DNA of 64,000 nucleotides, taken from contig JAGQIK010000493.1 in the NCBI GenBank assembly GCA_020431405.1, positions 7,121-71,120 on the forward strand, written 5' to 3'. Position 1 is the stretch's first letter. Every line of letters begins with the position of its first letter. Under the pieces are notes generated by a model. The model was not told the origin of the DNA, made no database searches, and saw nothing but the letters and a program-made list of their open reading frames with translations. The position numbers and the translations under genes were made by a program. This stretch comes from Myxococcales bacterium (GTDB lineage: Bacteria; Myxococcota_A; Polyangia; GCA-2747355). This document shows positions 7,573-42,604 of the stretch, in pieces.

Positions 7573-7576
<4 letters not shown>

Positions 7577-8754
7577 TCGACGCAGCGAGCGGCTTCTGCA
7601 CGGGCAGAGCGCAGCTCGGGGCGCCAGCGGAAGCGATCGATGGTCTTGCCTTCGAGGGCGTCGGCGACGAGCCGCCCGAGGATCGGGGCGAACTTGAAGG
7701 CGTGGCCGCTGCCGCCGGTGGCGACGGCGAGCCCCTCGCGCTCGGGGTGGCGCGCGATCCAGAAGTCGCCGTCCCAGCTGTCGGTGTACAAGCACAGGCG
7801 CGCGTAGCGCGGCCGCAGGCCGGCGAGCGCGGGCAGATAGCGCGCGAGGCCATCGCCGACGCGCGCGCGGTGTGCGGCGCTGACCTCGCGCGGCGCGTCG
7901 GCATCGATGACAGCGCCCGCGTCGTGCAGCGCCAGCTTGAGCACCCCCTCGCGCGGATGGATCGGAAAGCCGTAGAGACCCGTCGTCGCGATGTCGGCGG
8001 TGAAGAACGGCAGGCGCTCGTGCTGATAGTCGGCGGCCACCGCGTCGTCGACGCCGAAGTGAAAGAGCGCGTGACCGGTGGATCGTAGGCACGGCGCGAG
8101 CTCGGGCAGCAGCTTGGGGCTCCACGCACCCGCGGCGACGACGACCTCGTCGGCTAACAAAGTGTGTCCGCGCTCGTCCACCAGCCCCGTGACGCGCGAG
8201 CCGCGCTCGGCCAGCGCCGCGACGCGATACCCACCGCGCACCTCGACGCCGGCGGCCTGCGCGTCGCGCGCCAACCGCGCCACCACGCGCCCACTCTCGG
8301 CGTAGCCGCCGAGGGCGTGGAAGAAGCCGTCAACCCCAGCACCCCACGCCGGCACGCGCCGGTGCATCGCGGCTTCGTCGAGGCGCTCGACCTGGTGGCC
8401 GCGCGCGCGCAGCAGCTCGTAGCTGTCGTGCTCGAAGCTCCCGGGGCGCATCGGCTGGCTGGTGGCGACCAGCACGCCCACTTCGTGATAGAGCGGTTCG
8501 TCGCCGCCGCGCTGCCAGCGCGCCTGCAGATCGAGCCACGCCTCGCGCGCCTGCTCCATCAGCTCGGTGTAGAGCAGGTCGGCGCCGTACGTCATGCGCA
8601 CGGCCTTGCTGATGTCGCTGCTCGCCGCGTCGGCTGCCGGGATCTCGGCGCGGTCGACCAGCGTGACCCGCCGGCCACGTCGCCTCAGCTCGAGCGCCGT
8701 GCTGACGCCGAAGATGCCAGCACCGACCACGACCACGTGAGCATCGCGTGCCAT
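7573..8754 (-). CDS. FAD-dependent oxidoreductase, monomeric sarcosine/fructosyl-amine oxidase-like (DAO family)
   Basis: N-terminal HVVVVGAGIFGVSTALELRRRGRRVTLVD dinucleotide fold. C-terminal CLYTDSWDGDFWIARHP...VATGGSGHAFKFAPILG. Confidence 0.82.
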
Positions 8755-13980: not shown

Positions 13981-14058
13981 GCGCGGAAGCGCCTCACGTG
14001 CCGATGTGTCTCATGTGACCAAAGCCGCGCCACGCTAGTCGCGTCGGCGACTTGTTGG

Positions 14059-14074
14059 GGGCACGGGCGTTGCA
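14059..14074 (+). promoter_or_regulatory. Sigma-54-type -24/-12 promoter match in front of the Tae4-like gene
   Basis: GGGCACG-GGCG-TTGCA versus consensus TGGCACG-N4-TTGCW, with exact GG-N10-GC spacing. The predicted TSS (about 14085) leaves a roughly 18-nt leader carrying AAGGAG. Confidence 0.45.
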
Positions 14075-14102
14075 CGGCGATCTCGCACACAAGGAGCGCG
14101 AC

Positions 14103-14537
14103 ATGACTCGGCAGCTGCCGCCCTTCGACCATATGTGGGGCTCGTACCCGACCTACGCCAAGGCGCTCTCGATGGGAGCCGGGCTCAAACAATGGAGCCG
14201 TCTAAAGAACACCTGCGGCGTGCGCGTTAGCTACTGCCTCAACTACTGCGGCCACCCCATCCCGGCCCACGCCTTCGGGCTGCGCACGTGGAAGGGCGTC
14301 GACAACAAGTACTACTTGCCCTGGATGCGCGACGTTGAAGTCTACCTGGCGCGCGCCTACGCCCCCGCCGAGCGTGTCGGCTCGCAGCACGACGTCTCCG
14401 GGCGCCGCGGTGTGATCGCTTTCGAAGGGGGCTTCGCCAGCGTCACCGGCCACGTGGACTTGTGGAACGGCTCGCAGGCTGCCAACAACGCCTACTTCGG
14501 CTACGGCAGCACGATGTTCTTCTGGGAAGCGGACTAG
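14103..14537 (+). CDS. Tae4-like (T6SS amidase effector family 4-like) peptidoglycan amidase, 144 aa, no signal peptide
   Basis: AAGGAG SD at 14091-14096. Motifs FDHMWGSYP, KNTCGVRVSYCLNYCGHPIP (Cys38) and TGHVDLWNGS (His117). Size and motif order match my recollection of the Tae4 family. Confidence 0.68.
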   Translation: MTRQLPPFDHMWGSYPTYAKALSMGAGLKQWSRLKNTCGVRVSYCLNYCGHPIPAHAFGLRTWKGVDNKYYLPWMRDVEVYLARAYAPAERVGSQHDVSGRRGVIAFEGGFASVTGHVDLWNGSQAANNAYFGYGSTMFFWEAD

Positions 14538-18172: not shown

Positions 18173-19672
18173 CTAACGTATCAGCGAGAAGCTGTTGAGC
18201 CACCACTCGACCTGAATCCCGAGGTAGTGCTGCACCGCCTCGCCGTAGCGCTGATCTTCGACCGGGTAGCCCAGCTGCGCGCCGCGGTCGAGCACCGACA
18301 GCGTGTAGAGCAGCCGGATCTGCGGTCGGCTGTAGACGCCGCGCTTCCAGTTGAGCGTGGGCATCACGGTGAACTTGAAGACGGTCGGCTTGAGCTGCGT
18401 CTGCGTGCGCGGGTTGAGGCCGTCGGGGCGGCGGTGCTGGATCGACGCTTCGAATGCTTGGTGAAACCAGTCGGTGATGATCAGGTGCGGGCGCGCCGCG
18501 AAGACGAGCTCCCAGCCATCGTCGAAGTCGCTCTGCACGCCGTCGCCGTCGCGGAAGTAGCGCGCGTAGCCGCCCCAGGTGACGCCGAGCAAGCCGCGCT
18601 CGTAGTTTCCGGCCGCGGCGAGCACGATCTCGCGCGCGTCGGCGGAGGTCTTGTCGGGGCCGAGGCCGCGCGGCACAGCGAGGTCGCCGTAGGCGGCAAG
18701 CCCGCCGGCGAAGCGCGCCCAGAAGTTGAGGAAGCCGTTGTTCTGGCCGAAGGACCAGAAGCCCACCTGCGCGCCGACGACCCAGCCGGCGTCCTGCGGC
18801 AGCTCTTCTTCGATCAGCGGATCACCGGTTTCGCGGCGCGTACCGGAGGGCAGGTAGTGGATCTCGCCGTAGCCGACGATCTTCATGCACAGCTTGCCCC
18901 AGATGTTGTCGAACTGCTGGGTGATCTTGATGCTGCCGATGGTGCGCTGGCGATCGAGCACGTCCACCGGCTCGGTGCCAAACGTCGGCGCCGGCACGTC
19001 GAGCCGCTGCAGCTGAAACGGATCGTCGAGGCGGTTGACGCCGACGTGCAGGTCGATGCGCGTCTTGCTGCGCAGCTGGATGCCCGCGCCGCCGCCGATG
19101 GTGTTGAGGTTGTCGAGCGGCCAGTAGTCGAGCAGGTAGATGTCGTTGCCGCGATACATGCGCGAGCCGGCCCAGAAGGAGAGGCCTGGGATAAAGACGT
19201 TCTCGGCCTGTGCGAAGAGGTTGCGTACCGCCAGCGTCGCCTCGAACTTGCCGTTGTAGTGAAAGAAGTCTTCGAAGAAGGCGAGCGTGAAGGCGATGCG
19301 GAAGCGGAAGTTGTTCTTGCCGCGCTCGAGCACGTAGCCGAGGTCGAACTCGGCGTAGGGCGACTCCTCGAGGCGCGGGCCGTGCGAGACGACATTGAGC
19401 GACTTGGCTTTGGAGCCTTCGTCGAGGTCGCTCGAGATGCCCATGCGGCCGTAGGTGCCGAAGCGAAAGCCGCCGAGCAGGTCGAGCACGCGCTTGGTCA
19501 GCCCGCTCTGCGGCTGCTTTTGCATCAAGTCACCGCCCTTGCTGTCGCTGTCGGCGGGCGACGGCTTGGGCTGACCGGCTGTGGTGGCGGGCTGAGCTTC
19601 TGCGTGCGGCGCGGCGAGGAGCGTGAGCGACAGCAGAGCGAACGTGAAAGATATGGCGCGCGCGAGGTTCAC
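18173..19672 (-). CDS. Maltoporin/LamB-family carbohydrate porin
   Basis: GTG 19672 gives the signal peptide VNLARAISFTFALLSLTLLAAPHAEA. The mature part is FGTYGRMGIS...FWAGSRMYRGNDIYLLDYWPLDNLN, typical of sugar porins. Confidence 0.75.
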   Translation of the reverse strand: MNLARAISFTFALLSLTLLAAPHAEAQPATTAGQPKPSPADSDSKGGDLMQKQPQSGLTKRVLDLLGGFRFGTYGRMGISSDLDEGSKAKSLNVVSHGPRLEESPYAEFDLGYVLERGKNNFRFRIAFTLAFFEDFFHYNGKFEATLAVRNLFAQAENVFIPGLSFWAGSRMYRGNDIYLLDYWPLDNLNTIGGGAGIQLRSKTRIDLHVGVNRLDDPFQLQRLDVPAPTFGTEPVDVLDRQRTIGSIKITQQFDNIWGKLCMKIVGYGEIHYLPSGTRRETGDPLIEEELPQDAGWVVGAQVGFWSFGQNNGFLNFWARFAGGLAAYGDLAVPRGLGPDKTSADAREIVLAAAGNYERGLLGVTWGGYARYFRDGDGVQSDFDDGWELVFAARPHLIITDWFHQAFEASIQHRRPDGLNPRTQTQLKPTVFKFTVMPTLNWKRGVYSRPQIRLLYTLSVLDRGAQLGYPVEDQRYGEAVQHYLGIQVEWWLNSFSLIR

Positions 19673-19685
19673 GCGCAGCGGCAAA

Positions 19686-19700
19686 GCAACGATTATGCCG
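19686..19700 (-). promoter_or_regulatory. Sigma-54-type -24/-12 match in front of the porin-amylase operon
   Basis: Minus strand CGGCATA-ATCG-TTGCT with GG-N10-GC spacing. The -12 C is 13 nt from GTG 19672, which implies a leaderless mRNA. No SD is visible. Confidence 0.3.
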
Positions 19701-19751
19701 GGGATATCGCGCGAGAGATCCGGCGCGATCTCAACGCCGACGCCGCGGGCG

Positions 19752-19768
19752 CGTTGCCTTTTGCAACG
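19752..19768. promoter_or_regulatory. Palindrome CGTTGC-CTTTT-GCAACG, about 60 nt upstream of the -24 element
   Basis: Perfect 6-bp arms. The same GTTGC-N5-GCAAC core recurs at 25501..25515. Confidence 0.3.
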
Positions 19769-19832
19769 GCTGCCGCGTGGGCGGCGCGCGCGAGGCGTTG
19801 CGAAAGTCGGCGCGCTGCCGCAGGCTGAAACG

Positions 19833-20636
19833 ATGCACAGGATGGTGGTTGGAGGGCTGGTTTGGGGGCTCGCTGTCGCCGTAGTCGCGGCGCCGGGCGC
19901 GGCGGCGGCAGCGCCGGTATCGAAGCAGCTGATCCGCAAGCGCTGCACCAACTACGACCGGCACGTGTTGGCGCGCGGCAAGCTCGAGATCTCGCCGGTC
20001 AGCGGTGGCCAGCACGGCTATCTGGTGACGGTCGGCAAGGGCCGCAAGCGCTCGCGCTGGTTCGCGTACTTTCACAGCAAGCGCAAGTGCCGCGCGCTGC
20101 GCATCGGGCCGACGATCCGCGGACGGCTGGGGCCGGCGGGTGCGCAGGTGCGCGTGCTGGCCGGCAAGTGGCAGAGCAACGGCGGCCCCGAGGGCTCGGA
20201 GGGCAAGGGGGTGGTGCTGTGGGATCTCGGCGGCGGCAAGTACCACGCGCTGCTCGACGGCTGCGACTACCAGCACAAGCTGACCAAGGTGTCGCTGTAT
20301 CCCGGCAAGGCCGAGACGCTGCGCGTGATCTGCTACGAGAGCAATCAGACCGACTATTCCGCGACGATCGACTTCGCGCACTGGCTCGACGCGAAGAAAC
20401 CGAGCTGGGTCTTCAGCGCGAGCATCGGCCACGGCACCAACGCGCAGAACCCGCCAGTTCGCGCGCAAGGGTGGGTGCGCATCCGCCGCCGCGGCGTGCG
20501 GCCCGTGCTGCGTTCCTACCAGGCCTACGCGACGGATTCAGGCCGCGAGAACTGGCGCGTCACGGACCACGTATGGGATCCGAAGGCGCGCAAGTTCAAG
20601 CTCAGCCCCAAGCTGCTCAAGAAGAAAGACCTCTAG
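19833..20636 (+). CDS. Secreted basic protein, unknown function
   Basis: MHRMVVGGLVWGLAVAVVAAPGAAAAA signal-like N-terminus within ORF 19623..20636. The 3' end overlaps the convergent gene by 20 nt. Confidence 0.45.
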   Translation: MHRMVVGGLVWGLAVAVVAAPGAAAAAPVSKQLIRKRCTNYDRHVLARGKLEISPVSGGQHGYLVTVGKGRKRSRWFAYFHSKRKCRALRIGPTIRGRLGPAGAQVRVLAGKWQSNGGPEGSEGKGVVLWDLGGGKYHALLDGCDYQHKLTKVSLYPGKAETLRVICYESNQTDYSATIDFAHWLDAKKPSWVFSASIGHGTNAQNPPVRAQGWVRIRRRGVRPVLRSYQAYATDSGRENWRVTDHVWDPKARKFKLSPKLLKKKDL

Positions 20637-21735
20637 CGTCCTCGCCTCGCTGCGCGTCGTCGTGGCTATGGCCATGGGTGATGTAGTGGCAGAGCAGTTG
20701 GCGCATGCCGCGCGTGTCGACCAGCCCGCGCTGGTGCCGCGGCACGTGGAAGCGCAAGTCGGCCGTGTAGTAGCCGAGGGCGAGCACGCCCTGAATCGCG
20801 TCGCTGACGGCGCGCGCCTCGTCGGGCATCCCTAGCGAATGCTCGAGACACAGCGCGACGGCCGCCACGCTGCCGACGGGGTTGATCACGCGCGGGCCAT
20901 CACCGTCGTCGAGGATCGTCTCGGCACGTGTGGGCGCGTAGAGGTCGGTGCGGCCGCCGACGGTCGCCGTACCCTGCAGGCCGAGACTGCCTGCCAGCAG
21001 CGCGGCCTGATCGCCGAGCAGCTCGCCAAGCAGCGCCGACGTGACGATGACGTCGAAGCGGCGCGGGTGCTCGAGCAGTCGGCGGCCGGCGTCGTCGAAG
21101 GCGAGATGATCGACGCGTACGTCGGCGAAGCGGCGCGCCAGGTCGTCGACCACGCTGCGCCAGCTGGGGCCCGCGCTGTCGCTCGGACCGCGGTCGACGC
21201 AGGTCAAGCGGCGGCGCCGGCGCTGGGCCATCTGAAAGGCCGTGATCGCAGAGCGGCGCGCGCGTTCGACGTCGAAGAGGGCGTCGCGTTGTGGGCTGGG
21301 CGCGGCGGGCGGGTGGACCACCAGCAGATCGACGGCGCGGGCCAGCTCGGGGCGCAGCGCCGCGATGTCGCTCGACGACGGATAGGCGTGCACCGGCCGC
21401 AGCGTGGCGCCGGCGTCGAGGTCGAGCGCGAGGTGGCTGGTGGCGCGCGCGGTGGCGGCGCGGCGCGCGTTGATCGCGTCGGCGTCGGGGTAGCTTCGCG
21501 GCACGGCGTCGCAGGCGAACGCGATGAACAGCGCGTCGACGTCACGGGCGAGCAGGCGCGTCTCTTCCGGCAGCGCGTGGCCGCGCCGCGCCTGGGCTGC
21601 GGCGCCGAAGAGCGCGTCGATCAGCGAGAGCTGGTGGCCAAAGCGCGCGGCCACGGCCTCGAGCACGCAACGCACGACGCGGAGCTGGTCACGCCCGGCG
21701 CCGTCGCCGGCGAAGAGGGCGATGCTCTTGTGCAT
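20617..21735 (-). CDS. Isocitrate/isopropylmalate dehydrogenase-family protein with degenerate active-site motifs
   Basis: The fold-level pattern is retained (IALFAGDGAGRD, DVIVTSALLGELLGDQAALLAGSLG, INPVGSVAAVALCLEHSLG). The canonical YEPxHGSAPDIAG is replaced by YAPTRAETILDDGDG. Confidence 0.62.
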   Translation of the reverse strand: MHKSIALFAGDGAGRDQLRVVRCVLEAVAARFGHQLSLIDALFGAAAQARRGHALPEETRLLARDVDALFIAFACDAVPRSYPDADAINARRAATARATSHLALDLDAGATLRPVHAYPSSSDIAALRPELARAVDLLVVHPPAAPSPQRDALFDVERARRSAITAFQMAQRRRRRLTCVDRGPSDSAGPSWRSVVDDLARRFADVRVDHLAFDDAGRRLLEHPRRFDVIVTSALLGELLGDQAALLAGSLGLQGTATVGGRTDLYAPTRAETILDDGDGPRVINPVGSVAAVALCLEHSLGMPDEARAVSDAIQGVLALGYYTADLRFHVPRHQRGLVDTRGMRQLLCHYITHGHSHDDAQRGEDARGLSS

Positions 21736-21753
21736 GGACTTTCCCCTCCCGCG

Positions 21754-24700
21754 CTAGCCGTGGGCTTGCTGTTTGGCGCCGCAGTCTGCGACATCGATAA
21801 CGACAAACGAGGCGGCGCTCTCGGGCCAGCTGGCGAGCAGCCGGCGCGCGCGCGGCGATGCGGTGGCGTCGGCGAAGCGCTGCAGCAGCTGCCGAAGCTG
21901 GGTTTTGTGTTGGCTGTCGAGCGGGCGCGGCTCGATCCAGGCCGGCAACACCTCGCGCTGCCTCGGCGAGGCGGGCAGGTAGATGCGGCCGCCCGTGATG
22001 CTGGCGGCGAAGCCGCGCGATGGCGCTGAGAGGATCAGCCCGAGGCCGCAACGCATGCCTTCGAAGGCGCGCGTGCCGACCACCTCGGCGACGAGCGTGG
22101 CGCCGGCGTTGCGCGCGCCGAAACGCTCGGCTGCGCGCCCCGCGACATAAAGCTCGCCTCCCGACGCCGCATAGCCCGCGTCGTCGCCGACGAGCAGCAG
22201 CGGCGCCGCGGCGCGCAGTCCTGCGGGTGCCGTGACGATCACGCGCGCGCCTTCGCCGAGTCGCGCGGCGGCGAGATCGCCGACGAAGCCCTGATGGCGA
22301 AGCTCCGTGTGGCGCGCCGCGAAGGCCAGCCCGGTACGCGCGGGTCCGTCGTCGGCCGCGTCGCGTGGCGGTGGCGACTGCGCTGAGCTGACAAGCGGGC
22401 GTCCGGCCACTGGCCAGGCGACCAGCAGCGGAGACAGCGCGCGCGCGAGCTGCGCGTTGCCGCCCCGCGTCGTCTGTGCGCGAACGCGCAGCAGGTCTGC
22501 GCGTCCGACGAGCTCGCTGCAGCGCCACAGGCCCAGCCGCGCGAGCACGATGCGAAGCTCGCGCGCCAGCGCGCGGCCAGCCCAGCGCCGCGGCGTCAGG
22601 CTGTCGTTGGCCGCGGAGCTGGCGTGCGCGCCATCGCCGGCCGGTCCGCGTGCCACCAGCGAGACCTCGTCGGCGCCGAGCGCGATCAACGTCGCCAGCG
22701 CGCTGCCGTCGCGCGGCGCAGCCTCGACGCGCAGCCGCAGCGACGCGCGCGCGCCGCTCTTGACGAGCCAGCGATGGGCTTCAGCGAGCGACAGCTCGAG
22801 CGCCACGCCGGCGTGCCGAACGTGATCGAGGTAGTGCTCGTCGTTGCGCCCGCCGTAGCCGGCCAAGGTGATGAGGTCGGCGCCCGCTGCTACCGCCGCC
22901 GCCAGCAGCCGGTCGAGCTCGCCGACGCACGGCAGCCGCACCTCGATCTCGGCGGCGCCCGCACGCCGTTCGATCTCGGCGAGGCGCACCACGTCGCGTG
23001 CTCCGCGTGGGTGTGGGTGATCGGTGGGCGCGACGAGATCGATGCGTCCGCGCCGCACGTTCGGCGCGCGCGAGGCGTCGCGCATGATCACCTCGCGCAT
23101 GATCGCCGTCGAGCTCTGGCGCTCGAGCCACGCTCGCTCCGCGCTAACGTTCTCGCATTGAACTAGCTCGAGTCGATCGCGCAAGAGACTAGATGACTTC
23201 GGATCGAGCTCGAGCGGCGCCGAGCCTGCAGGGTGTACGCGCTGGCGCACGTCGTGCCAAAGGTCGCCGAGCGTGCGGCCGCCGAGCCTGAAGCGCGTGC
23301 CCTCGATGAAGTAGTCGACGACGTCCTCGTCGAGGCCCACCGCATCGAAGCGCGCGGCGCCGCGATAGCCGATCACCGACGTGAGGCCGGCGTTGGCGAT
23401 GGCGCGCCGCAACGTCTCGAGCAGCGCGCGCGTGGCGCGAGCCTGCGCTTGATCGGCGGCCGCGGCGGTGCGCGCGCCGCGCCGCGCCAGCGCCAGCAGC
23501 GCGAAGGGGTAGACCGCCGTCGCGCCGTAGGCGACGAGCGCCGCCACGTCGTGGCCTTCGTGCACCTCGCCGCACTCGGCGACGACGCTGACGCTGCGGC
23601 GCAGGCCGCGCGCACTCAGCGCGCGATGCAGCGCGCCGACCAGCAGCACCATCGGCAATGGCAGCCGCTCGCTGCTGGTGACGAGGGCGTCGCTGAGCAC
23701 GATCAGCCCGCGCCCTTCGGCAGCCGCCGCCGTCGCCTGCTCGATGACCTCGTGCATGCGCTGCTTCATCGCGCGCTCGTCGGCGGTCGCGTCGCAGGTG
23801 GCGTCCACGCGACACGCTTCGTCACGCAGTGCGAAGGCGCGCCACAGCGCGGCCATGCTGCGCTCGTCGAGCAGCGGATGGGACAGGGCGACCTGCCTCC
23901 CCTGTGCCGGACCGACGAACACGTCGAGCTCGATGCCGCGTCCTTCGTCGCTGGGGTCGACGATCACGCCGGTGACGCGCTGGTGCAGAAGCTCGCTGAC
24001 GCGCGCGGTGCCGTCATCGAGCAGCGCCAGCGACGCGCGACCCGCGAGGCCTTCGATGGGCTCGGCGCCGTCCGCGACGGTGCGCGCCAAGGCCGCGCGA
24101 CGCCTCTCGCTCCAAGCGAAACGACGAAGCGCAGGCTCGTCGAGGGTCAGCCGGGCGTGGGTGCGTCGCGCGGCGGCGGCCTCGCCGAGCTCGAGCAGCG
24201 TGCTGCTGTTGTCCGATGTGGTGTGCGGCTGCGCGGCCACGTCAGCGCGGCCCGGCAGCAGCAGACGTCCGCTGCCGGTGTCGGCGACGATCATCTCGCC
24301 GGCGGCGAGCTGACCGTCGACCACCACGTCGCCCTCGTCGATGAGACCACGCACGGGCTCGCTGCTGAGCACCACGCGGCAGGTGGCGCTGCTGGCGAAG
24401 CGCAGCGTGCGCTGACCGAGGCGGTCGACGGCGCCGACCAACATCTGCCCGTCGGTTCCCGCCACCGCGGCCGGGCCCTCCCACGCGCCGAGCGCGCCGA
24501 GACGCCGACGTTCGGCGTCGTAGCGTTGCCGCGCGTCGGCATCTGCGAGCGCTGGGCGCGGCGGTGGCAGCATGAAGCGCAGCCCTTCGGCGATGTCGCG
24601 CGCCGCGCCGCTGGTCGTCAGCCGCTCGAGCGTGCGGTCGAGCATCGCGCCCGAGGTCTGCAGGCGCGCGGTCGACACGGGCCGCGGCACGGCGCCGAGG

Positions 24701-25449
24701 CTGTCGGCGAGCGCGCGCCGGTTGGCGGTTAGACTGGCCAGCGCCCCATCAAAGGCGAGCCGCTGGCCTGGGCCGAAGACCCGCCAGGCGGCCAGCGCGT
24801 CGTGTGGCTCGGCGTCGGCGCGGCAGGTGTCCACCTGCACGATCACCACGCGCGCCGCCATTCGCTCGTCGGCGAGGTCGGCGAAGCAGCCCATCAGCTC
24901 GTGCGGCGCGACCGGCGCTCGATAGCGCAGCACGCCGGGCGCCAGCGAGCCGACCACCACCTCCTCGGCGTAGCGCGCTTGCAGCGACTCGCGCGCTGCG
25001 GCCAGCGCCAGGTCGAGCTCGCCGCGCGCCCGATGCCCACGTCCGATCAGCAGCTGCTCGCACCAGCTGTGGTGCTCGCCTTCGACGACGCGCCACGCCA
25101 GCGCCGCCAAGCCCTCGGCGCGCAGCAGCCGCGAGGCCGCATCGCGAACGTCGCGTGCCGCCGACGGCGTGAGCGACGCATCCGCGACCAAGGTACAGAT
25201 CGCGAGGCGCTCGTCCGGCTCGCCTTCGAGGCGCGTTTCGAAGAGCGCCGCCATCTCGCGCGGCCCGAGCGCGAGCAGCACGCCGCACTCGGCATGGCCG
25301 GCGCCTACGCGCACCTGGCTCGCCGCAGCGAGCGCTTCGCGCACCAAGCGCGGCGATGCCGGCGCGGTCAGCTCGGCGATGGCGACGATACCGCTGCTAT
25401 CTAGATGACGCTCGCTCACGCGAGGCGAGCTGAGCAAGATGCAGGCCAC
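21754..25449 (-). CDS. Glutamate synthase large-subunit (GltB)-like protein, 1231 aa, with catalytic and cofactor motifs degenerate
   Basis: GTG start. Central-domain pattern LIVLSDA...LVGALHRALSARGLRRSVSVVAECGEVHEGHDVAALVAYGATAVYPF. GXGXG-type C-terminal domain GDDAGYAASGGELYVAGRAAERFGARNAGATLV...ITGGRIYL. ITLAGYGGRNDE stands in place of ISGHDGGTGAS. Confidence 0.72.
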   Translation of the reverse strand: MACILLSSPRVSERHLDSSGIVAIAELTAPASPRLVREALAAASQVRVGAGHAECGVLLALGPREMAALFETRLEGEPDERLAICTLVADASLTPSAARDVRDAASRLLRAEGLAALAWRVVEGEHHSWCEQLLIGRGHRARGELDLALAAARESLQARYAEEVVVGSLAPGVLRYRAPVAPHELMGCFADLADERMAARVVIVQVDTCRADAEPHDALAAWRVFGPGQRLAFDGALASLTANRRALADSLGAVPRPVSTARLQTSGAMLDRTLERLTTSGAARDIAEGLRFMLPPPRPALADADARQRYDAERRRLGALGAWEGPAAVAGTDGQMLVGAVDRLGQRTLRFASSATCRVVLSSEPVRGLIDEGDVVVDGQLAAGEMIVADTGSGRLLLPGRADVAAQPHTTSDNSSTLLELGEAAAARRTHARLTLDEPALRRFAWSERRRAALARTVADGAEPIEGLAGRASLALLDDGTARVSELLHQRVTGVIVDPSDEGRGIELDVFVGPAQGRQVALSHPLLDERSMAALWRAFALRDEACRVDATCDATADERAMKQRMHEVIEQATAAAAEGRGLIVLSDALVTSSERLPLPMVLLVGALHRALSARGLRRSVSVVAECGEVHEGHDVAALVAYGATAVYPFALLALARRGARTAAAADQAQARATRALLETLRRAIANAGLTSVIGYRGAARFDAVGLDEDVVDYFIEGTRFRLGGRTLGDLWHDVRQRVHPAGSAPLELDPKSSSLLRDRLELVQCENVSAERAWLERQSSTAIMREVIMRDASRAPNVRRGRIDLVAPTDHPHPRGARDVVRLAEIERRAGAAEIEVRLPCVGELDRLLAAAVAAGADLITLAGYGGRNDEHYLDHVRHAGVALELSLAEAHRWLVKSGARASLRLRVEAAPRDGSALATLIALGADEVSLVARGPAGDGAHASSAANDSLTPRRWAGRALARELRIVLARLGLWRCSELVGRADLLRVRAQTTRGGNAQLARALSPLLVAWPVAGRPLVSSAQSPPPRDAADDGPARTGLAFAARHTELRHQGFVGDLAAARLGEGARVIVTAPAGLRAAAPLLLVGDDAGYAASGGELYVAGRAAERFGARNAGATLVAEVVGTRAFEGMRCGLGLILSAPSRGFAASITGGRIYLPASPRQREVLPAWIEPRPLDSQHKTQLRQLLQRFADATASPRARRLLASWPESAASFVVIDVADCGAKQQAHG

Positions 25450-25500
25450 GGGAGCCTAGCGGCGAAGCCGTGGGATATCGCGGGTAGGTGCGGCGTGCGT

Positions 25501-25515
25501 GTTGCGATGTGCAAC
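25501..25515. promoter_or_regulatory. Palindrome GTTGC-GATGT-GCAAC, about 60 nt upstream of the GltB-like start
   Basis: Perfect 5-bp arms with the same core and spacing as 19753..19767. Confidence 0.25.
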
Positions 25516-25651
25516 GTGTACGAGGAACGAGCGCGCGTTCCCGCACGGCTGTCTCGCGATGGATACGCTTGTTGATGTAACAACCGCGCCGTGCTGCGGT
25601 CACGTTCGCAGCGCCGAGGCACGAGAGTTCGGTGGATTGGAGCGCCGCAGG

Positions 25652-25747
25652 CTTGCGGCGCGACCGCGAGCGTAGCGAGCGACATCGGGGGTGAGGCGGC
25701 GACGAGCCGCCTCTAGCCGCCGAGGGGGGCTGGGACAGCCCCCCTAG
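25652..25747. repeat. Intergenic structured repeat, copy A (three stem-loops; second copy at 62917..63001)
   Basis: Hairpins at 25652-25670, 25693-25713 and 25724-25744 (loop GGGAC). The linear core GCGACCGCGAGCGTAGCGAGCGACATCGGGGGTGAG is nearly identical in copy B. Confidence 0.8.
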
Positions 25748-25767
25748 AGATGACTCTGGGCGTCGGG

Positions 25768-25785
25768 CAAGCGCGAATGCGCTTG
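25768..25785 (-). terminator. Hairpin immediately after the atpE stop (CAAGCGC-GAAT-GCGCTTG)
   Basis: 7-bp stem 9 nt downstream of the stop at 25794. No T-run. Confidence 0.35.
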
Positions 25786-25793
25786 TTCGACGA

Positions 25794-26126
<333 letters not shown>

Positions 26127-26182
26127 TTTCAGAAGCTCCTCGCAGGCGCCGCATGGCTGCGACACAGCGTTGTTAGCGACGG

Positions 26183-26959
26183 CTAGTGCTCTTCGTGAGC
26201 CATCGCTTGGTCGATATAGATCATGCTGAGCAGGGTGAAGACCAGCGTCTGCACCACGCAGACGAGGATGCCCAGCACGTAAAACGGCAGCGGAACCAAG
26301 ATCGGCACCAGCAGGAAGAAGGTGCCGAGGACCTTGTGGTCGGCGAACATGTTGCCGAGCAGACGCAGCGACAGCGAGATCGGCCGGATCAGGTGGCTGA
26401 TGATCTCGATCGGCAGGATCAGCGGCGTGAGCCACCAGATCGGCCCCAGGAAGTGCTTGAAGTAGCTCATCCCGCTTTCTTTGACGCCGACGATGTGCGT
26501 CATGAAGAAGACCAGCAGCGCGATGCCGAAGTTGGTCTTGAGCGTATCGGTGGCCGGAACCATGCCGGGCACCAGGCCGATGATGTTGTTGAAGAGGATG
26601 AAGAAGACCAGCGTGCCGAGCAGCGGCAGAAACTTCTCCGCCTTCTCGCGCCCCATCACGCCTTCGCCGATGGACAGCGTGGCGTCGATGATCAGCTCGA
26701 ACAGGTTGCGCACGCCGAAGCGCGACTCTGGCACCAAGCGGTCGTCGCGGCTCGCCGCCACGCGGCGCCGGTAGGAGAGGCCGAGCAGCGTCAGCAGCAG
26801 CACCACGACCACACCGATGACCACGTGGATCATGGTGAAGTGCGTGCGGCCGAGACCGACCACCTCGAGCTTCCAGTGCCGCTCGAGGTATTTGCCTGCC
26901 CATTCCTGCAGGTTCCAGTAAGCCGGGATCAGGTGGATCCAGGTGGTGTGCTCACCCAT
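26183..26959 (-). CDS. atpB: F0 ATP synthase subunit a
   Basis: IRPISLSLRLLGNMFADH (essential Arg motif), multi-pass hydrophobic profile. Confidence 0.9.
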   Translation of the reverse strand: MGEHTTWIHLIPAYWNLQEWAGKYLERHWKLEVVGLGRTHFTMIHVVIGVVVVLLLTLLGLSYRRRVAASRDDRLVPESRFGVRNLFELIIDATLSIGEGVMGREKAEKFLPLLGTLVFFILFNNIIGLVPGMVPATDTLKTNFGIALLVFFMTHIVGVKESGMSYFKHFLGPIWWLTPLILPIEIISHLIRPISLSLRLLGNMFADHKVLGTFFLLVPILVPLPFYVLGILVCVVQTLVFTLLSMIYIDQAMAHEEH

Positions 26960-26967
26960 CGATTACC

Positions 26968-27405
26968 TCACGGCTCCTCGGCCCCGCGAGAGGAGGGCTC
27001 GGGCTCTGACGCCGCGCGTAGGACAAGCCGCAGGCCTTCGACGAAGATAGAAAAGACGACCAGCGAGACGCCGATCAGCAGCGCGGTGCCGGACAGCGGC
27101 ACGAAGCGCATCACGATGAACAGCGCCGTGCCCATCAAGCCGAACTTGAGCATCAGCAGCATCACCAGGCCGCTGCGCTTGGGCGCGCCGTCGGGGTTGT
27201 TCTTGAGGATGCCGCTCATCAGCCAGCGCAACGCGTAGAAGTTGGCGCTGCCGAGCATGCCGCCCACCAGCAGACCGAGCGTCACGTCAGCGGTGGTGAT
27301 GAAGAGCGAGATCAGCGTCGCCGTCGCGGTCAGCACCAGCGCCAATCGCTCGACGATCATCGTCGGTCGCTTGGCTGGCAGGCTGTCTTGACGCGGCTCG
27401 GTCAT
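26968..27405 (-). CDS. atpI: ATP synthase protein I-like small membrane protein
   Basis: Position upstream of atpB. Four hydrophobic segments. ATG 27405 overlaps the previous stop (ATGA). The ORF is open further upstream, but that part looks non-coding. Confidence 0.55.
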   Translation of the reverse strand: MTEPRQDSLPAKRPTMIVERLALVLTATATLISLFITTADVTLGLLVGGMLGSANFYALRWLMSGILKNNPDGAPKRSGLVMLLMLKFGLMGTALFIVMRFVPLSGTALLIGVSLVVFSIFVEGLRLVLRAASEPEPSSRGAEEP

Positions 27406-27644
27406 TTTTCCGATTGCTGGTCGCTGCTCTCGTCGTCGTTTTCGCGGGCTTCCCGAAGTCCCATCTGCGCCACCCGGACAATCGCTCGTACCGCCACCGC
27501 GATGCCCAGACCAAGACCGCCCAGCAGGTACGCTGTCTTGTGCCCGTAGCGCTCGCCAAGCCACCACCCTGCCGCCGTACAGACCCCGATAGCGATCCCC
27601 ATCTCGAGCCCGACCGCGCTGTAACGCATGGCACTGCGCCACAT
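27402..27644 (-). CDS. AtpZ/AtpR-like small membrane protein (F0F1-ATPase 'gene 1' family)
   Basis: Two TM segments YSAVGLEMGIAIGVCTAAGWWLG / LLGGLGLGIAVAVRAIV. It is the first gene of the atp F0 cluster. Confidence 0.55.
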   Translation of the reverse strand: MWRSAMRYSAVGLEMGIAIGVCTAAGWWLGERYGHKTAYLLGGLGLGIAVAVRAIVRVAQMGLREARENDDESSDQQSEK

Positions 27645-40792: not shown

Positions 40793-42592
40793 ATGCCCAC
40801 ATCGCACCTGCAGCGCGCCGCCGCCGCTGCGCACGCCGTCGACCATCAACAGATGCTGCACGCGCTGCTCGACGCGTGGCGTGCCTGCCGCGACGCGCGC
40901 ATCGCCGCGCTGATCGAGGCCAGCGACGCGCGCGTCGCGCCGCTGTTGGCGCCGCTCGATACGCGCGCGGGCGAGCTCGCCTATCACGAAGCCTGGGTGC
41001 GCCTCGCCAGCGCCGAGCGCGCCCTCGACGTGCCGAGGCTGCTGCCCGGTCTCTTTCGCCGCCCGCTGGGCCAGCACTTCGTGCGCCGCGTGGAGCAGAT
41101 CGCCGAGCGCCCCGACGACCCGCGCATCGCCGCCGCCCTGGCGCAGATGGTGCTCGAGCCGCCCGCGACCTCGCGCTCGATCTGGTACGCGTGGCACGTG
41201 ATCATCGAGCGGCTGGTCGCCATCAGCGACCCGAGCACGGTCGCACCGCTGCGCGCGCGCCTGGCCGAGCCCAAGGGGGAGTCGCTGTTCTGGCCGATGC
41301 TCTACGAAAAGATCGAGCAAGCGCTCGCTGCGCTGCCCGGCGAGCCTCCGCCGCTGTCGAGCGCCGCGCGCGCCGCGCTCGACGAGGCGACGTCGGCGCT
41401 GGCCGCGATGCCTGCTGCGCGCGCCGACGAGCTCGCCGCACCCGCGGCGGCGCCAGCGAGCGATCTCGACGCGCTGCTCGCCGCCGTCTACGCCGACCCG
41501 GCGTCCGACGAAGCGCGCCGCGTCTACGCCGACGCGCTCTCGGAGCGCGGCGACCCCCACGCCGAGCTGATCCAGCTGCAGCTCGCGCCGCCCAGCGCCG
41601 AGGCCGAGGCGCGGGCCGAGGCGCTGCTGGCCGAGCACGGCGAGCGCTGGCTCGGACCGCTGCGCGCGGCGCTCGAGCCGAGCGAGACCCGCTTCGAGCG
41701 CGGCTTTCTCGCTCGCTGCGAAGTGGGCTTCGGCGCCGACAGCGCGCGCGACGAGCTGCTCGCCGAGCGCGGCTGGTCGACCGTCAGCGAGCTCTATTCG
41801 GACGACCCCGCGGTGCTGCGCAGCGCGGCGTTTCGCGGGCTGCACACCATCGGCGGTTTCGAGGCCGCGCTGCTCGCCGAGCTCGCCACGGCTGATCCGC
41901 CGCTCGACGTGGCGACCCTCGCCGCGGTGCGCCTCGAGTCGCTGCCGCACGAAGGGCTCGCCGGCCTGCGCACGAGCACGTTTTCTGGCCTCCCGGCGGT
42001 GCGCGTGCTGCAGCTGGTGGGCATCGACTACTACGACTCGCGCCAGATCAACGCGCTGCTCGACAGCCTCTCCGGGCTAGAGCTCGTGCGACGCCTCGAG
42101 CGCCTCGAGGTCTCGGTGCCGGCCTACGACGGTGCGCCCTCGGCGAGCGCGCTGTTCGCCGCGCTGCCGGGCTTGCGCCTGCTGACCGTGCATCCCGACT
42201 TCTATTACTGCGTCACGCTGGTGCGTGCGGACGACGGCAGCGTCGGCCTGCGCGTGGTGCAGCTCATCGCGCCCTTTCGCGACGCACGCGATGACGCCGA
42301 CATGCTGGCGGCGTCGCTCGTCGCGCACCTCGCGACGCGGCCCGACTGGCTTGCCCTCGACTACGCCGGCGAGCCGCGCCCGGCGGACGAGATCGACCCA
42401 CACTACGATCGCATCGTCGAGGTGCTGCGCGCTCGCCGCGACCTCGCGCCGCTGCGCGGGCTGCCGCTGACGCTGCCGCGCGACGATCCGCAGCCGTGGG
42501 CGCGTCACCTCGGGTCGTGGTCCAGCGAGGACGACCGTCGCAAGCGGCAAAAGCGCCTCGCGCGCGCTCGCGCCCGCGCGCGGCGCGGGTGA
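40793..42592 (+). CDS. TIGR02996-motif (repeat-companion) protein with a leucine-rich C-terminal region
   Basis: LLAAVYADPASDEARRVYADALSERGDPHAELIQLQLA matches the TIGR02996 signature as I recall it. Confidence 0.6.
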   Translation: MPTSHLQRAAAAAHAVDHQQMLHALLDAWRACRDARIAALIEASDARVAPLLAPLDTRAGELAYHEAWVRLASAERALDVPRLLPGLFRRPLGQHFVRRVEQIAERPDDPRIAAALAQMVLEPPATSRSIWYAWHVIIERLVAISDPSTVAPLRARLAEPKGESLFWPMLYEKIEQALAALPGEPPPLSSAARAALDEATSALAAMPAARADELAAPAAAPASDLDALLAAVYADPASDEARRVYADALSERGDPHAELIQLQLAPPSAEAEARAEALLAEHGERWLGPLRAALEPSETRFERGFLARCEVGFGADSARDELLAERGWSTVSELYSDDPAVLRSAAFRGLHTIGGFEAALLAELATADPPLDVATLAAVRLESLPHEGLAGLRTSTFSGLPAVRVLQLVGIDYYDSRQINALLDSLSGLELVRRLERLEVSVPAYDGAPSASALFAALPGLRLLTVHPDFYYCVTLVRADDGSVGLRVVQLIAPFRDARDDADMLAASLVAHLATRPDWLALDYAGEPRPADEIDPHYDRIVEVLRARRDLAPLRGLPLTLPRDDPQPWARHLGSWSSEDDRRKRQKRLARARARARRG

Positions 42593-42604
42593 TAGGCTGT
42601 CTCG

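What the first reader, a model, noticed from the sequence alone, without database searches (positions are those of the whole stretch)
20617..25449. Co-oriented pair of apparent pseudoenzymes: a GltB-like protein and an isopropylmalate-dehydrogenase-like protein
The 1231-aa protein keeps the recognisable order of glutamate synthase large-subunit domains. These are an Ntn-amidotransferase-like N-terminus, a central domain (LVGALHRALSARGLRRSVSVVAECGEVHEGHDVAALVAYGATAVYPF), a TIM-barrel region and a GXGXG C-terminal domain.

The canonical catalytic and cofactor motifs are replaced:
- AFDGALASLTAN stands where LAHNGEINT is expected.
- No HxRFSTNT motif is present.
- ITLAGYGGRNDE stands where ISGHDGGTGAS is expected.
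- I see no 3Fe-4S Cys triad.

Nineteen nt downstream lies a 372-aa IDH/IPMDH-fold protein, also with eroded motifs:
- FAGDGAGRD for LPGDGIGPE.
- LLGELLGDQ for LFGDILSDE.
- YAPTRAETILDDGDG for YEPxHGSAPDIAG.

Two large, intact, co-transcribed ORFs of degenerate central-metabolism folds suggest neofunctionalisation (a scaffold, a regulator, or new chemistry) rather than decay.
Basis: partly seen in the sequence, partly recalled or inferred. Interest (0 to 1): 0.65.

Follow-up and report, generated by a model that had tools for sequence, protein, structure and literature searches.

The report
Dead GltB-like and LeuB-like gene pair
Two adjacent genes in an uncultured wastewater bacterium encode full-length but catalytically dead copies of glutamate synthase and isopropylmalate dehydrogenase that still look like translated proteins; what they do is unknown and no other sequenced organism has the pair.

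Summary
Both ORFs lie on the minus strand: a GltB-like ORF of 1231 aa (21754-25449) and an IPMDH-like ORF of 372 aa (20617-21735).

**GltB-like protein.**
- It keeps the four GltS domains in order and in one reading frame.
- It has 0 of 9 key catalytic or cofactor residues; all nine are invariant in 31 of 36 full-length homologues, and the other five differ only by an alignment gap at Cys1 or Ser for the GGTGAS Thr.
- About 125 aa of the FMN barrel and the 3Fe-4S cysteines are gone.
- The central domain is the best preserved part.

**IPMDH-like protein.**
- It keeps the fold: pLDDT 83, TM 0.8 to IPMDH structures.
- It has lost Tyr139, Lys185, Arg94, Arg132 and the NAD loop.

**Signs that both are still translated genes.**
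- All homology sits in a single frame, although composition alone predicts about 10.6 stop codons.
- Codon periodicity is retained.
- A GGGAGGGG ribosome-binding site sits in the 18-nt gap between the genes.
- Variants are biased towards synonymous changes (8 of 13, P=0.01).
- Identical contigs were recovered from eight DNA runs.

**Limits.**
- Both proteins sit on very long branches with drifted amino-acid composition.
- No orthologue of either was found in any collection.
- None of the five closest intact GltBs has an IPMDH neighbour.
- FMN-less GltB derivatives arose independently at least four times elsewhere.

**Verdict.** This is most likely a weakly constrained pseudoenzyme pair with a binding or regulatory role. 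Slow decay remains a serious rival.

The parts
21754..25449 (-). GltB-like ORF, 1231 aa, GTG start. All four GltS domains are colinear, but no catalytic or cofactor motif is left.
24259..25392 (-). Ntn-amidotransferase-like domain (residues 20-397). Ser19 replaces Cys1, and the glutamine-binding Arg, Asn and Asp are all replaced.
   Evidence: Pfam GATase_2, E=1e-18. Motif table. 52% of conserved columns are kept. AF2 pLDDT is 65-86 for residues 16-205 and 29-45 around the former active site.
23329..24108 (-). Central domain (residues 448-707), the best preserved part of the protein.
   Evidence: Pfam Glu_syn_central, E=1.7e-41. 67% of conserved columns are kept. pLDDT is 80-93.
22657..23040 (-). 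Remnant of the FMN/synthase barrel (residues 804-931, profile positions 175-303 of 369). The N-terminal half, the FMN phosphate motif and the 3Fe-4S cysteines are lost.
   Evidence: pLDDT is 21-55.
21967..22323 (-). C-terminal GXGXG beta-helix remnant (residues 1043-1161). The first turns are missing.
   Evidence: Pfam GXGXG, E=2e-17, profile positions 47-165 of 190. Alignment.
21743..21750 (-). Shine-Dalgarno sequence GGGAGGGG, 7 nt upstream of the ATG of the IPMDH-like gene, inside the 18-nt gap between the genes.
20617..21735 (-). IPMDH-like ORF, 372 aa. The Iso_dh fold is kept. The catalytic Tyr/Lys pair, two substrate arginines and the NAD loop are lost.
25433..25448 (-). Sigma-54-like -24/-12 element, TGGCCTGCATCTTGCT. 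It overlaps the first codons of the ORF as drawn and is the only match in the window. It may be chance.
   Evidence: 1 match, 0.67 expected per window.
25724..25744 (-). GC-rich hairpin (9-bp stem as read from the sequence, 10 pairs in the predicted fold, 3-nt loop, no T-run) just downstream of atpE. It probably separates the atpIBE unit from the pair.
   Evidence: -24.4 kcal/mol, z=-3.5.

Best explanation
The two genes form a small operon that encodes two non-catalytic descendants (pseudoenzymes) of central-metabolism enzymes.

**Shown.**
- The GltB-like protein can no longer hydrolyse glutamine, bind FMN or 2-oxoglutarate, or hold the 3Fe-4S cluster.
- The IPMDH-like protein lacks the Tyr/Lys catalytic pair and the NAD loop.
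- Both reading frames are nevertheless intact, keep coding periodicity and show variation biased towards synonymous changes.

**Inferred.**
- They are translated and kept under weak purifying selection for a role that needs the fold and not the chemistry.

**Most likely mechanism (speculative).**
- The role is binding or regulation.
- The best preserved module, the GltS central domain, acts as a docking surface. In Bacillus subtilis that same domain of GltA inserts into the cleft of the dehydrogenase GudB, and the dead C1A mutant still binds.
- The target would be the co-encoded IPMDH-like dimer or a real enzyme.
- The IPMDH-like protein keeps Arg104, Asp217 and Asp245, with Glu at position 241. 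It might therefore still bind a metal or a dicarboxylate without turning it over.
For: **Loss of catalysis.**
- The GltB-like protein has 0 of 9 key residues; all nine stand in 31 of 36 homologues, and the other five differ only by an alignment gap at Cys1 or Ser for the GGTGAS Thr (motif table).
- Only 29% of conserved FMN-domain columns are kept, and 34 are deleted.
- In the IPMDH-like protein, 5 of 8 core residues are replaced; all are invariant in 13 homologues. Their roles are as given in PMC9041340.

**Maintenance.**
- All tblastn homology lies in one frame, with no out-of-frame remnants.
- Many lineage-specific indels are all in frame.
- Composition predicts 10.6 stops where none is seen (P=2.5e-5).
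- GC1/GC2/GC3 is 0.79/0.55/0.87.
- A Shine-Dalgarno sequence precedes gene 2.
- Eight synonymous against five non-synonymous variant codons, P=0.01, pN/pS about 0.23.
- Contigs from RNA runs match both ORFs, exactly or nearly so for the GltB-like ORF and at about 97% identity for the IPMDH-like ORF.
- The IPMDH-like model has pLDDT 83 and TM 0.80-0.83 to IPMDH structures. Its low-confidence stretches within the fold are the three former active-site loops, and the C-terminal tail (residues 357-372) is also low.

**Precedents.**
- An actinobacterial-type clade of FMN-less GltBs keeps its shared architecture at 44-50% identity.
- The GltA central domain docks onto GudB, and the C1A mutant still binds (bioRxiv 10.1101/2021.04.12.439528).
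- The central domain is the best kept part here.
Against: - No orthologue of either protein was found anywhere, so conservation over time cannot be shown.
- The branch is very long.
- The amino-acid composition is the most GC-drifted in the window: A+R+G+P is 0.41-0.43, and K+N+I+F+Y+M is 0.07-0.09.
- The remnant of the FMN barrel and the first beta-helix turns are not confidently foldable (the alignment had only 7 sequences).
- The variant test rests on 13 codons from one sister population. For the GltB-like gene alone it is not significant (4:4, P=0.15).
- RNA-run contigs are at the same low depth as the flanks, so DNA carry-over cannot be excluded.
- The full-length large protein is absent from the protein collection, although the small one is present. 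The source record may not call it a gene.
- The docking mechanism is an analogy only.
Confidence: 0.5

Rival explanations
1. The genes are relics in slow decay. The lineage no longer needs this gltB copy and this leuB copy. Both genes lost function and are eroding, and the ORFs simply have not been broken yet. They have no present function.
For: - Catalytic sites are completely eroded, with large deletions.
- The branch is the longest in the tree.
- Composition has drifted towards the genome's GC bias.
- Both neighbours are degenerate at once.
- No orthologue exists elsewhere.
- Comparable degenerate GltBs sit exactly at ancestral gltB positions in other lineages. One sits in trpA-lgt-[gltB*]-pyk without gltD. 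Another sits next to the yhcC-like gene, with an intact gltBD 7 kb away. That pattern is what a displaced relic would look like.
- The FMN remnant has low pLDDT.
Against: - Neutral decay deep enough to leave 36-39% identity to the nearest intact relative should have produced frameshifts and stops. None is seen, all homology is in one frame, and composition predicts 10.6 stops.
- GC2 of 0.52-0.55 against GC3 of 0.87-0.89 shows that coding periodicity is not erased.
- A strong Shine-Dalgarno sequence is retained.
- Variants are enriched for synonymous changes.
- The actinobacterial-type degenerate clade has persisted to 44-50% identity with intact ORFs.
Confidence: 0.3
2. The proteins carry out new chemistry. 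One or both are still enzymes with a different reaction. Ser19 could act as an Ntn nucleophile in a hydrolase. The IPMDH-like protein could use its remaining metal and carboxylate ligands for a reaction that does not need NAD.
For: - A Ser stands exactly at the Cys1 position.
- The IPMDH-like protein keeps Arg113, Asp214, Glu238 and Asp242, which correspond to T. thermophilus positions 104, 217, 241 and 245.
- The genes are organised like an operon.
Against: - Every other residue of the glutaminase site is replaced, and the region is predicted with pLDDT 29-45.
- Half of the FMN barrel is deleted.
- The general acid/base pair and the NAD loop of IPMDH are gone, and the loops that carried them are low-confidence.
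- There are no conserved relatives that would define a new active site.
Confidence: 0.1
3. The locus is an assembly or binning artefact: a chimeric or error-laden metagenome contig that mimics degenerate genes.
For: The window comes from a metagenome-assembled contig of a low-abundance organism, at depth of about 3-6.
Against: Independent short contigs from eight DNA runs match with zero differences across both ORFs. They cover the junction between the genes (21668-22071, 21565-21756) and the deletion site (22938-23224). Errors would give frameshifts, not in-frame motif replacement.
Confidence: 0.02

Closest known systems
Glutamate synthase large subunit (GltB/GltA/GlsF; NCBIfam NF008730; PDB 7MFM, 1LLW, 1EA0)
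   Same: It has the same four domains in the same order (glutaminase, central, synthase, beta-helix; PMC8097209). E=4.6e-65 to 7MFM chain G. It shares clade-specific motifs (GAWEGPA, VDRxG, ALGADEVSL, AFExM) with a stand-alone GltB clade: P0044, P0001, P0002, P0046 and P0047.
   Different: It has 0 of 9 key residues. About 125 aa of the synthase barrel, the FMN phosphate motif, the 3Fe-4S cysteines and the first beta-helix turns are missing. It is 1231 aa against about 1450-1550. It scores 306 bits against a cut-off of 1047. No gltD is adjacent.
3-isopropylmalate dehydrogenase (LeuB; TIGR00169; PDB 3U1H, 1HEX)
   Same: It has the same fold (TM 0.80-0.83) and 31-36% identity. Arg104, Asp217 and Asp245 are kept. 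The C-terminal half, which includes the FDVIVT...GD region, is well conserved.
   Different: Tyr139 is deleted, Lys185 is Arg, Arg94 is Ala, Arg132 is His, Asp241 is Glu, and HGSAPDIAG reads RAETILDDG. It scores 154 bits against a cut-off of 353.
Other FMN-less GltB derivatives in databases, e.g. 'glutamate synthase central domain-containing protein' WP_377154528.1 of Pseudaeromonas sharmana, and unnamed 1285-1360-aa proteins at trpA-lgt-[ ]-pyk loci
   Same: They have the same pattern of loss. The N-half of the synthase domain and the Fe-S cysteines are deleted. The glutaminase fold, central domain and beta-helix are retained. Length is 1260-1360 aa with intact ORFs.
   Different: They arose independently on the NJ tree. 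They have no IPMDH-like neighbour. Some keep the glutaminase residues: P0174 keeps Cys, Arg, Asn and Asp. The window's protein is the most eroded overall (45% of all conserved columns kept), although P0189 keeps fewer of the central and synthase-domain columns.
B. subtilis GltAB-GudB counter-enzyme complex
   Same: It is a precedent for a non-catalytic, binding role of a GltS large subunit. The central domain docks into the inter-domain cleft of a dehydrogenase, and the dead C1A mutant still binds (bioRxiv 10.1101/2021.04.12.439528). Here the central domain is the best preserved module, and the co-encoded partner has a two-domain dehydrogenase fold.
   Different: GltAB is a fully active enzyme, and its partner GudB is an active glutamate dehydrogenase of an unrelated fold. 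No interaction has been tested here.
Regulatory beta/gamma subunits of eukaryotic NAD-isocitrate dehydrogenase (IDH3)
   Same: They are paralogues of the same Iso_dh fold that serve a regulatory rather than a catalytic role (my own knowledge). They appear among the PDB matches.
   Different: IDH3 beta and gamma pair with a catalytic alpha subunit and bind allosteric ligands. No catalytic partner is encoded next to the window's protein, and its sequence is closest to LeuB, not IDH.

Membership tests
Glutamate synthase large subunit (GltB) | Four-domain architecture: Ntn-amidotransferase, central, FMN/synthase, GXGXG beta-helix | tested here: met
   All four Pfam domains are present in order and in one frame, although the last two are truncated.
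Glutamate synthase large subunit (GltB) | N-terminal Cys1 nucleophile and glutamine-binding Arg (HxRFSTNT), Asn-Gly (HNGEINT) and Asp (SDS) | tested here: not met
   The four positions read Ser, Ala, Asp and Ser. All four residues stand in 33 of 36 homologues; the other three show only an alignment gap at Cys1.
Glutamate synthase large subunit (GltB) | FMN and 2-oxoglutarate site (QGAKPGEGGQ, GGTGAS, DGGxxTG) in a complete (beta/alpha)8 barrel | tested here: not met
   The motif block is deleted, and the others read GRNDEH and EAAPRDG. Only profile positions 175-303 of 369 match.
Glutamate synthase large subunit (GltB) | Three-cysteine ligand set of the 3Fe-4S cluster | tested here: not met
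   No Cys stands at any of the three columns; 36 of 36 homologues have CCC.
Glutamate synthase large subunit (GltB) | Score at or above the NCBIfam NF008730 equivalog cut-off | tested here: not met
   306 bits against 1047.
Glutamate synthase large subunit (GltB) | Electron-donor partner (adjacent gltD, or ferredoxin dependence) | tested here: inconclusive
   No gltD was found among the window genes scanned against Pfam, which were most but not all of its ORFs. The closest intact clade also lacks an adjacent gltD. The rest of the genome was not available.
3-isopropylmalate dehydrogenase (LeuB) | Iso_dh fold | tested here: met
   Pfam E=4.6e-43. AF2 pLDDT 83, TM 0.80-0.83 to IPMDH structures.
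3-isopropylmalate dehydrogenase (LeuB) | Catalytic Tyr139 and Lys185 (T. thermophilus numbering; PMC9041340) | tested here: not met
   Tyr is deleted and Lys is Arg182. Both are invariant in 13 homologues.
3-isopropylmalate dehydrogenase (LeuB) | Substrate arginines 94, 104 and 132, and metal ligands Asp217, Asp241 and Asp245 | tested here: not met
   Ala103, Arg113 (kept), His141; Asp214 (kept), Glu238, Asp242 (kept).
3-isopropylmalate dehydrogenase (LeuB) | NAD-binding loop E-P-x-H-G-S-A-P-D-I-A-G | tested here: not met
   It reads A-P-T-R-A-E-T-I-L-D-D-G, with pLDDT below 50 at residues 272-279.
3-isopropylmalate dehydrogenase (LeuB) | Score at or above the TIGR00169 equivalog cut-off | tested here: not met
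   154 bits against 353.
Pseudoenzyme (non-catalytic homologue kept by selection) | Loss of residues essential for the ancestral reaction | tested here: met
Pseudoenzyme (non-catalytic homologue kept by selection) | Evidence of purifying selection or long-term retention | tested here: inconclusive
   **For:** a single frame, no stops where 10.6 are expected, coding periodicity, and 8:5 synonymous to non-synonymous variants. **Against:** no orthologues for dN/dS.
Pseudoenzyme (non-catalytic homologue kept by selection) | The protein is expressed | tested here: inconclusive
   Metatranscriptome contigs match both ORFs (exactly or nearly so in the GltB-like ORF, about 97% in the IPMDH-like ORF), but at the same low depth as the flanks. 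DNA carry-over is possible.
Pseudoenzyme (non-catalytic homologue kept by selection) | A demonstrated non-catalytic function | not testable with these tools
   This needs pull-downs, a knockout or a structure.

The most novel reading that the evidence does not exclude
GltS large subunits that have shed the FMN/Fe-S synthase core but keep the central domain could be a recurrent, so far undescribed class of regulatory proteins. They would dock onto dehydrogenase clefts, as GltA does on GudB. In this window one such protein would be caught together with its dedicated, equally dead, dehydrogenase-fold partner, making a two-pseudoenzyme sensor or regulator of nitrogen or branched-chain amino-acid metabolism.
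Probability: 0.1. Interest if true: 0.75.

Novelty: new variant of a known kind. Interest (0 to 1): 0.42.

Why it matters
Pseudoenzymes are well known in eukaryotic signalling and much less charted in bacterial central metabolism. I found no paper describing a non-catalytic GltB or LeuB derivative.

The side result may matter more than this one locus. FMN-less GltB derivatives with intact ORFs arose at least four times. They lost the same parts and kept the same parts, including the central domain. If these proteins are functional, that domain has a role beyond lining the ammonia tunnel, and the GltAB-GudB complex suggests what that role could be.

If they are relics, they are a useful warning. 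In GC-rich genomes, large dead genes can pass as intact ORFs and be annotated as enzymes, which inflates metabolic reconstructions of uncultured organisms.

Tried and rejected
**Searches for orthologues or a syntenic pair all came back empty.**
- Word-indexed search of 5.8 billion proteins: best hits were 33% identity for the large protein and 36% for the small one.
- Full HMMER scan of 1.84 billion cluster representatives: best hit 39%, an intact enzyme.
- Genome collection.
- Metagenome contigs, with both proteins as queries.

**Searches that were poorly spent.**
- A neighbour-anchored genome scan with HemL returned only relatives at or below 62% identity, from many phyla. It gave no synteny and no taxon.
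- The third homologue search, with an alignment of degenerate GltBs, did not return them. Contig look-ups worked on ids from the representatives search anyway.

**Other negative results.**
- An exact look-up of the small protein's contig failed.
- Rfam found no family in the window.
- The sigma-70 scan found no promoter in the region around the pair (19900-26200).
- PADLOC found no defence family.
- Literature searches for GltB or LeuB pseudoenzymes found nothing relevant.

**Ideas considered and rejected.**
- That ORF length alone shows function. Antisense ORFs of up to 499 aa occur in this GC-rich region. I therefore used in-frame homology and composition-based stop expectation instead.
- That gltB-leuB adjacency is ancestral. 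Five intact relatives lack it.
- That the locus is an assembly artefact. Exact contigs came from eight runs.

**Not attempted.**
- dN/dS against distant homologues, because substitutions are saturated.
- A multimer structure prediction, because no tool or quota remained.

Full report
**1. What is there**

The two ORFs lie on the minus strand.
- The first runs 21754-25449: 1231 aa, GTG start.
- The second runs 20617-21735: 372 aa, ATG start.

The genes are separated by 18 nt. That gap holds GGGAGGGG 7 nt before the ATG. No minus-strand terminator-like site lies between them.

Upstream there is a 344-nt spacer. It begins with a strong hairpin just after atpE (-24.4 kcal/mol, z=-3.5). The pair therefore looks like its own two-gene unit.

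Downstream, a convergent gene of unknown function overlaps the 3' end by 20 nt.

The neighbourhood is ordinary core chromosome:
- gyrA, hemL and atpI-atpB-atpE on one side;
- a LamB-like porin, two alpha-amylases and a secretin on the other;
- further away EF-G, coaX and rimM-trmD.

The window comes from an 86-kb contig of a low-abundance organism in activated sludge or wastewater.

**2. The GltB-like protein**

Pfam finds the four GltS domains in canonical order:

| Domain | Residues | E-value | Note |
|---|---|---|---|
| GATase_2 | 20-397 | 1e-18 | |
| Glu_syn_central | 448-707 | 1.7e-41 | |
| Glu_synthase | 804-931 | 3.5e-15 | profile positions 175-303 of 369 only |
| GXGXG | 1043-1161 | 2e-17 | |

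The order matches the domain map of the Azospirillum enzyme (PMC8097209).

The NCBIfam GltB model scores 306 bits against a cut-off of 1047.

A tblastn of the nearest intact relative against the region places all homology in one frame. The relative's residues 782-971 have no counterpart in any frame.

The motif table shows these changes:

| Canonical feature | In the window's protein |
|---|---|
| Cys1 | Ser19 |
| HxRFSTNT | replaced, with a 6-aa insertion |
| HNGEINT | FDGALAS |
| SDS | TSG |
| QGAKPGEGGQ block | deleted |
| GGTGAS | GRNDEH |
| DGGLRTG | EAAPRDG |
| 3Fe-4S cysteine positions | no cysteine |
| first beta-helix turns | missing |

Nine key residues were scored in 36 full-length homologues. 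Thirty-one carry all nine, and the other five differ only by an alignment gap at Cys1 or Ser for the GGTGAS Thr. The window's protein has none. The assignment of roles to these motifs rests on my knowledge of the GltS structures.

I then scored 224 columns that are at least 90% conserved in those homologues. The window's protein keeps 101 of them:

| Domain | Conserved columns kept |
|---|---|
| Glutaminase | 52% |
| Central | 67% |
| Synthase | 29% (34 deleted) |
| Beta-helix | 56% |

Its nearest intact relatives keep 93-100%.

An AlphaFold2 model was built from a shallow 7-sequence alignment, so it carries limited weight.
- It is confident for the N-terminal half of the glutaminase domain (pLDDT 65-86).
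- It is confident for the central domain (80-93).
- It is poor for the former glutaminase site (29-45) and for the synthase remnant (21-55).

**3. The IPMDH-like protein**

Pfam Iso_dh matches at E=4.6e-43. The LeuB equivalog scores 154 bits against a cut-off of 353.

The AlphaFold2 model is good: pLDDT 83, pTM 0.85. It superposes on IPMDH structures with TM 0.80-0.83.

Within the fold, its low-confidence stretches are residues 148-151, 186-188 and 272-279; the C-terminal tail (residues 357-372), beyond the conserved fold, is also low. The three internal stretches are the loops that in real enzymes carry Tyr139, follow Lys185 and bind NAD.

The residue table uses T. thermophilus numbering, with roles as summarised in PMC9041340. 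The mapping was checked by motif spacing. All listed positions are invariant in 13 homologues.

| Position | In the window's protein |
|---|---|
| Arg94 | Ala |
| Arg104 | kept |
| Arg132 | His |
| Tyr139 | deleted |
| Lys185 | Arg |
| Asp217 | kept |
| Asp241 | Glu |
| Asp245 | kept |
| EPxHGSAPDIAG | APTRAETILDDG |

**4. Gene or fossil?**

*Evidence for a maintained gene:*
- The reading frame is unbroken, and co-linear homology runs from residue about 17 to about 1218.
- This lineage carries many more indels than its relatives, including deletions of 14-48 aa, and all are in frame.
- From the ORF's own position-specific base composition, 10.6 stop codons would be expected in 1231 codons (P of none = 2.5e-5). 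For the small ORF 2.8 would be expected.
- Codon periodicity is intact: GC1/GC2/GC3 is 0.79/0.55/0.87 and 0.78/0.52/0.89.
- A strong ribosome-binding site precedes gene 2.
- Two metatranscriptome runs contain a sister population. It differs at 14 listed sites in 13 codons. Eight changes are synonymous and five are not (P=0.01 against the 27% expected; pN/pS about 0.23).
- For the small gene alone the split is 4:1. For the large gene alone it is 4:4, which is not significant.
- RNA-run contigs match both ORFs, exactly or nearly so in the large ORF and at about 97% identity in the small one. Their depth equals that of the flanking genes, so DNA carry-over cannot be excluded.
- Contigs from eight DNA runs match exactly and show no variants, which rules out assembly error.

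*Evidence against:*
- The branch is the longest in the tree.
- The amino-acid composition is the most GC-drifted in the window. A+R+G+P is 0.41-0.43 and K+N+I+F+Y+M is 0.07-0.09. Housekeeping neighbours show 0.21-0.37 and 0.19-0.27.
- The full-length large protein is not in the 15-billion-protein collection, although the small one is. Only a 161-aa fragment of the large protein is present.

**5. Relatives and synteny**

No orthologue of either protein was found in any collection.
- The nearest GltB relative is 39% identical and fully intact.
- The nearest LeuB relative is 36% identical and intact.

On an NJ tree, the window's protein is the long-branched sister of a clade of stand-alone GltBs: P0044, P0001, P0002, P0046 and P0047. 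It shares clade-specific motifs with them. None of these five loci has a gltD or an IPMDH-like neighbour. The adjacency is therefore unique to this window.

**6. A wider pattern found on the way**

The representatives search also brought up other GltB-like proteins of 1260-1360 aa. They have lost the same parts: the N-half of the synthase domain and the Fe-S cysteines. They keep the rest.

They fall in at least three further, separate places on the tree.
- **Pseudaeromonas sharmana** (WP_377154528.1, named "glutamate synthase central domain-containing protein"). It sits beside the yhcC-like radical-SAM gene, with an intact gltBD 7 kb away.
- **A three-member clade at trpA-lgt--pyk loci without gltD.** From memory, that gene order is actinobacterial. 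Its members are only 44-50% identical to each other yet share the architecture, so the degenerate form has persisted for a long time.
- **A protein next to a LysR-type regulator gene**.

None has an IPMDH-like neighbour.

**7. Mechanism**

*Shown:* neither protein can carry out its ancestral reaction.

*Inferred:* they are translated and weakly constrained.

*Most likely role (speculative):* binding or regulation through the surviving folds.
- The one experimentally grounded lead is the B. subtilis GltAB-GudB complex. There the central domain of GltA docks into the inter-domain cleft of a dehydrogenase.
- The catalytically dead C1A mutant still binds (bioRxiv 10.1101/2021.04.12.439528).
- That entry, 7MFM, is also the best PDB match of the window's protein.
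- Here the central domain is the best preserved module, and the co-encoded partner has a two-domain dehydrogenase fold.
- No interaction was tested.

*Rivals:*
- Slow decay of relics: 0.3.
- New chemistry: 0.1.
- Assembly artefact: 0.02.

**8. Verdict**

- The "pseudoenzyme" reading is well supported.
- "Neofunctionalised rather than decaying" is favoured but unproven.
- The idea of a conserved functional pair has no comparative support.
- I rate this a new variant of a known kind, of moderate interest.

Noticed in passing
L084 10001-13798; L086 2781-6638; L087 2143-6057; L085 8001-11975: FMN-less, Fe-S-less GltB derivatives of 1260-1360 aa with intact ORFs occur in at least three other, phylogenetically separate lineages. 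They often sit at the ancestral gltB position: next to yhcC in Pseudaeromonas with an intact gltBD 7 kb away, and in trpA-lgt-[ ]-pyk without gltD. They show the same pattern of domain loss as the window's protein.
   Followed up: partly
window 25433-25448 (-): TGGCCTGCATCTTGCT fits the sigma-54 -24/-12 spacing (TGGC-N7-TTGCW). It is the only match in the 64-kb window (0.67 expected). It overlaps the first codons of the GltB-like ORF. If real, translation would start at the GTG of codon 11 (25417-25419).
   Followed up: partly
window 25794-27644 (-): An atpI-atpB-atpE cluster stands alone without the other ATP synthase genes. The c-subunit ORF has an N-terminal, signal-like extension. Metatranscriptome contigs pile up on atpE with many mismatches, probably from other organisms.
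   Followed up: no
window 40793-43372 (+) and 7573-8754 (-): Three other ORFs share the pair's drifted composition (GC1 0.74-0.80, A+R+G+P 0.42-0.46). Two have no Pfam match (599 aa and 255 aa). One is a DAO-family oxidoreductase. The signature of low constraint is therefore not unique to the pair.
   Followed up: no
window 57820-59223 (+): This 467-aa ORF matches both tRNA_m1G_MT (TrmD) and a C-terminal SAM-dependent RNA methyltransferase domain (Methyltrn_RNA_4), directly after rimM.
   Followed up: no
window 14052-14537 (+): A lone Tae4-family (type VI amidase effector) ORF lies between the secretin gene and the amylase genes. No T6SS genes were seen among the window genes scanned against Pfam.
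   Followed up: no
P0041, P0042 (alignment A4): A separate small group of IPMDH-like proteins from other organisms has a degenerate N-terminal GDGIGPE motif and a degenerate HGSAPDIAG loop. It keeps the Arg, Tyr, Lys and Asp core, so it may be another divergent branch of the fold.
   Followed up: no
window 19623-20636 (+): A convergent ORF has no family match. It probably starts near 19830 with a signal peptide. Its 3' end overlaps the 3' end of the IPMDH-like gene by 20 nt.
   Followed up: no
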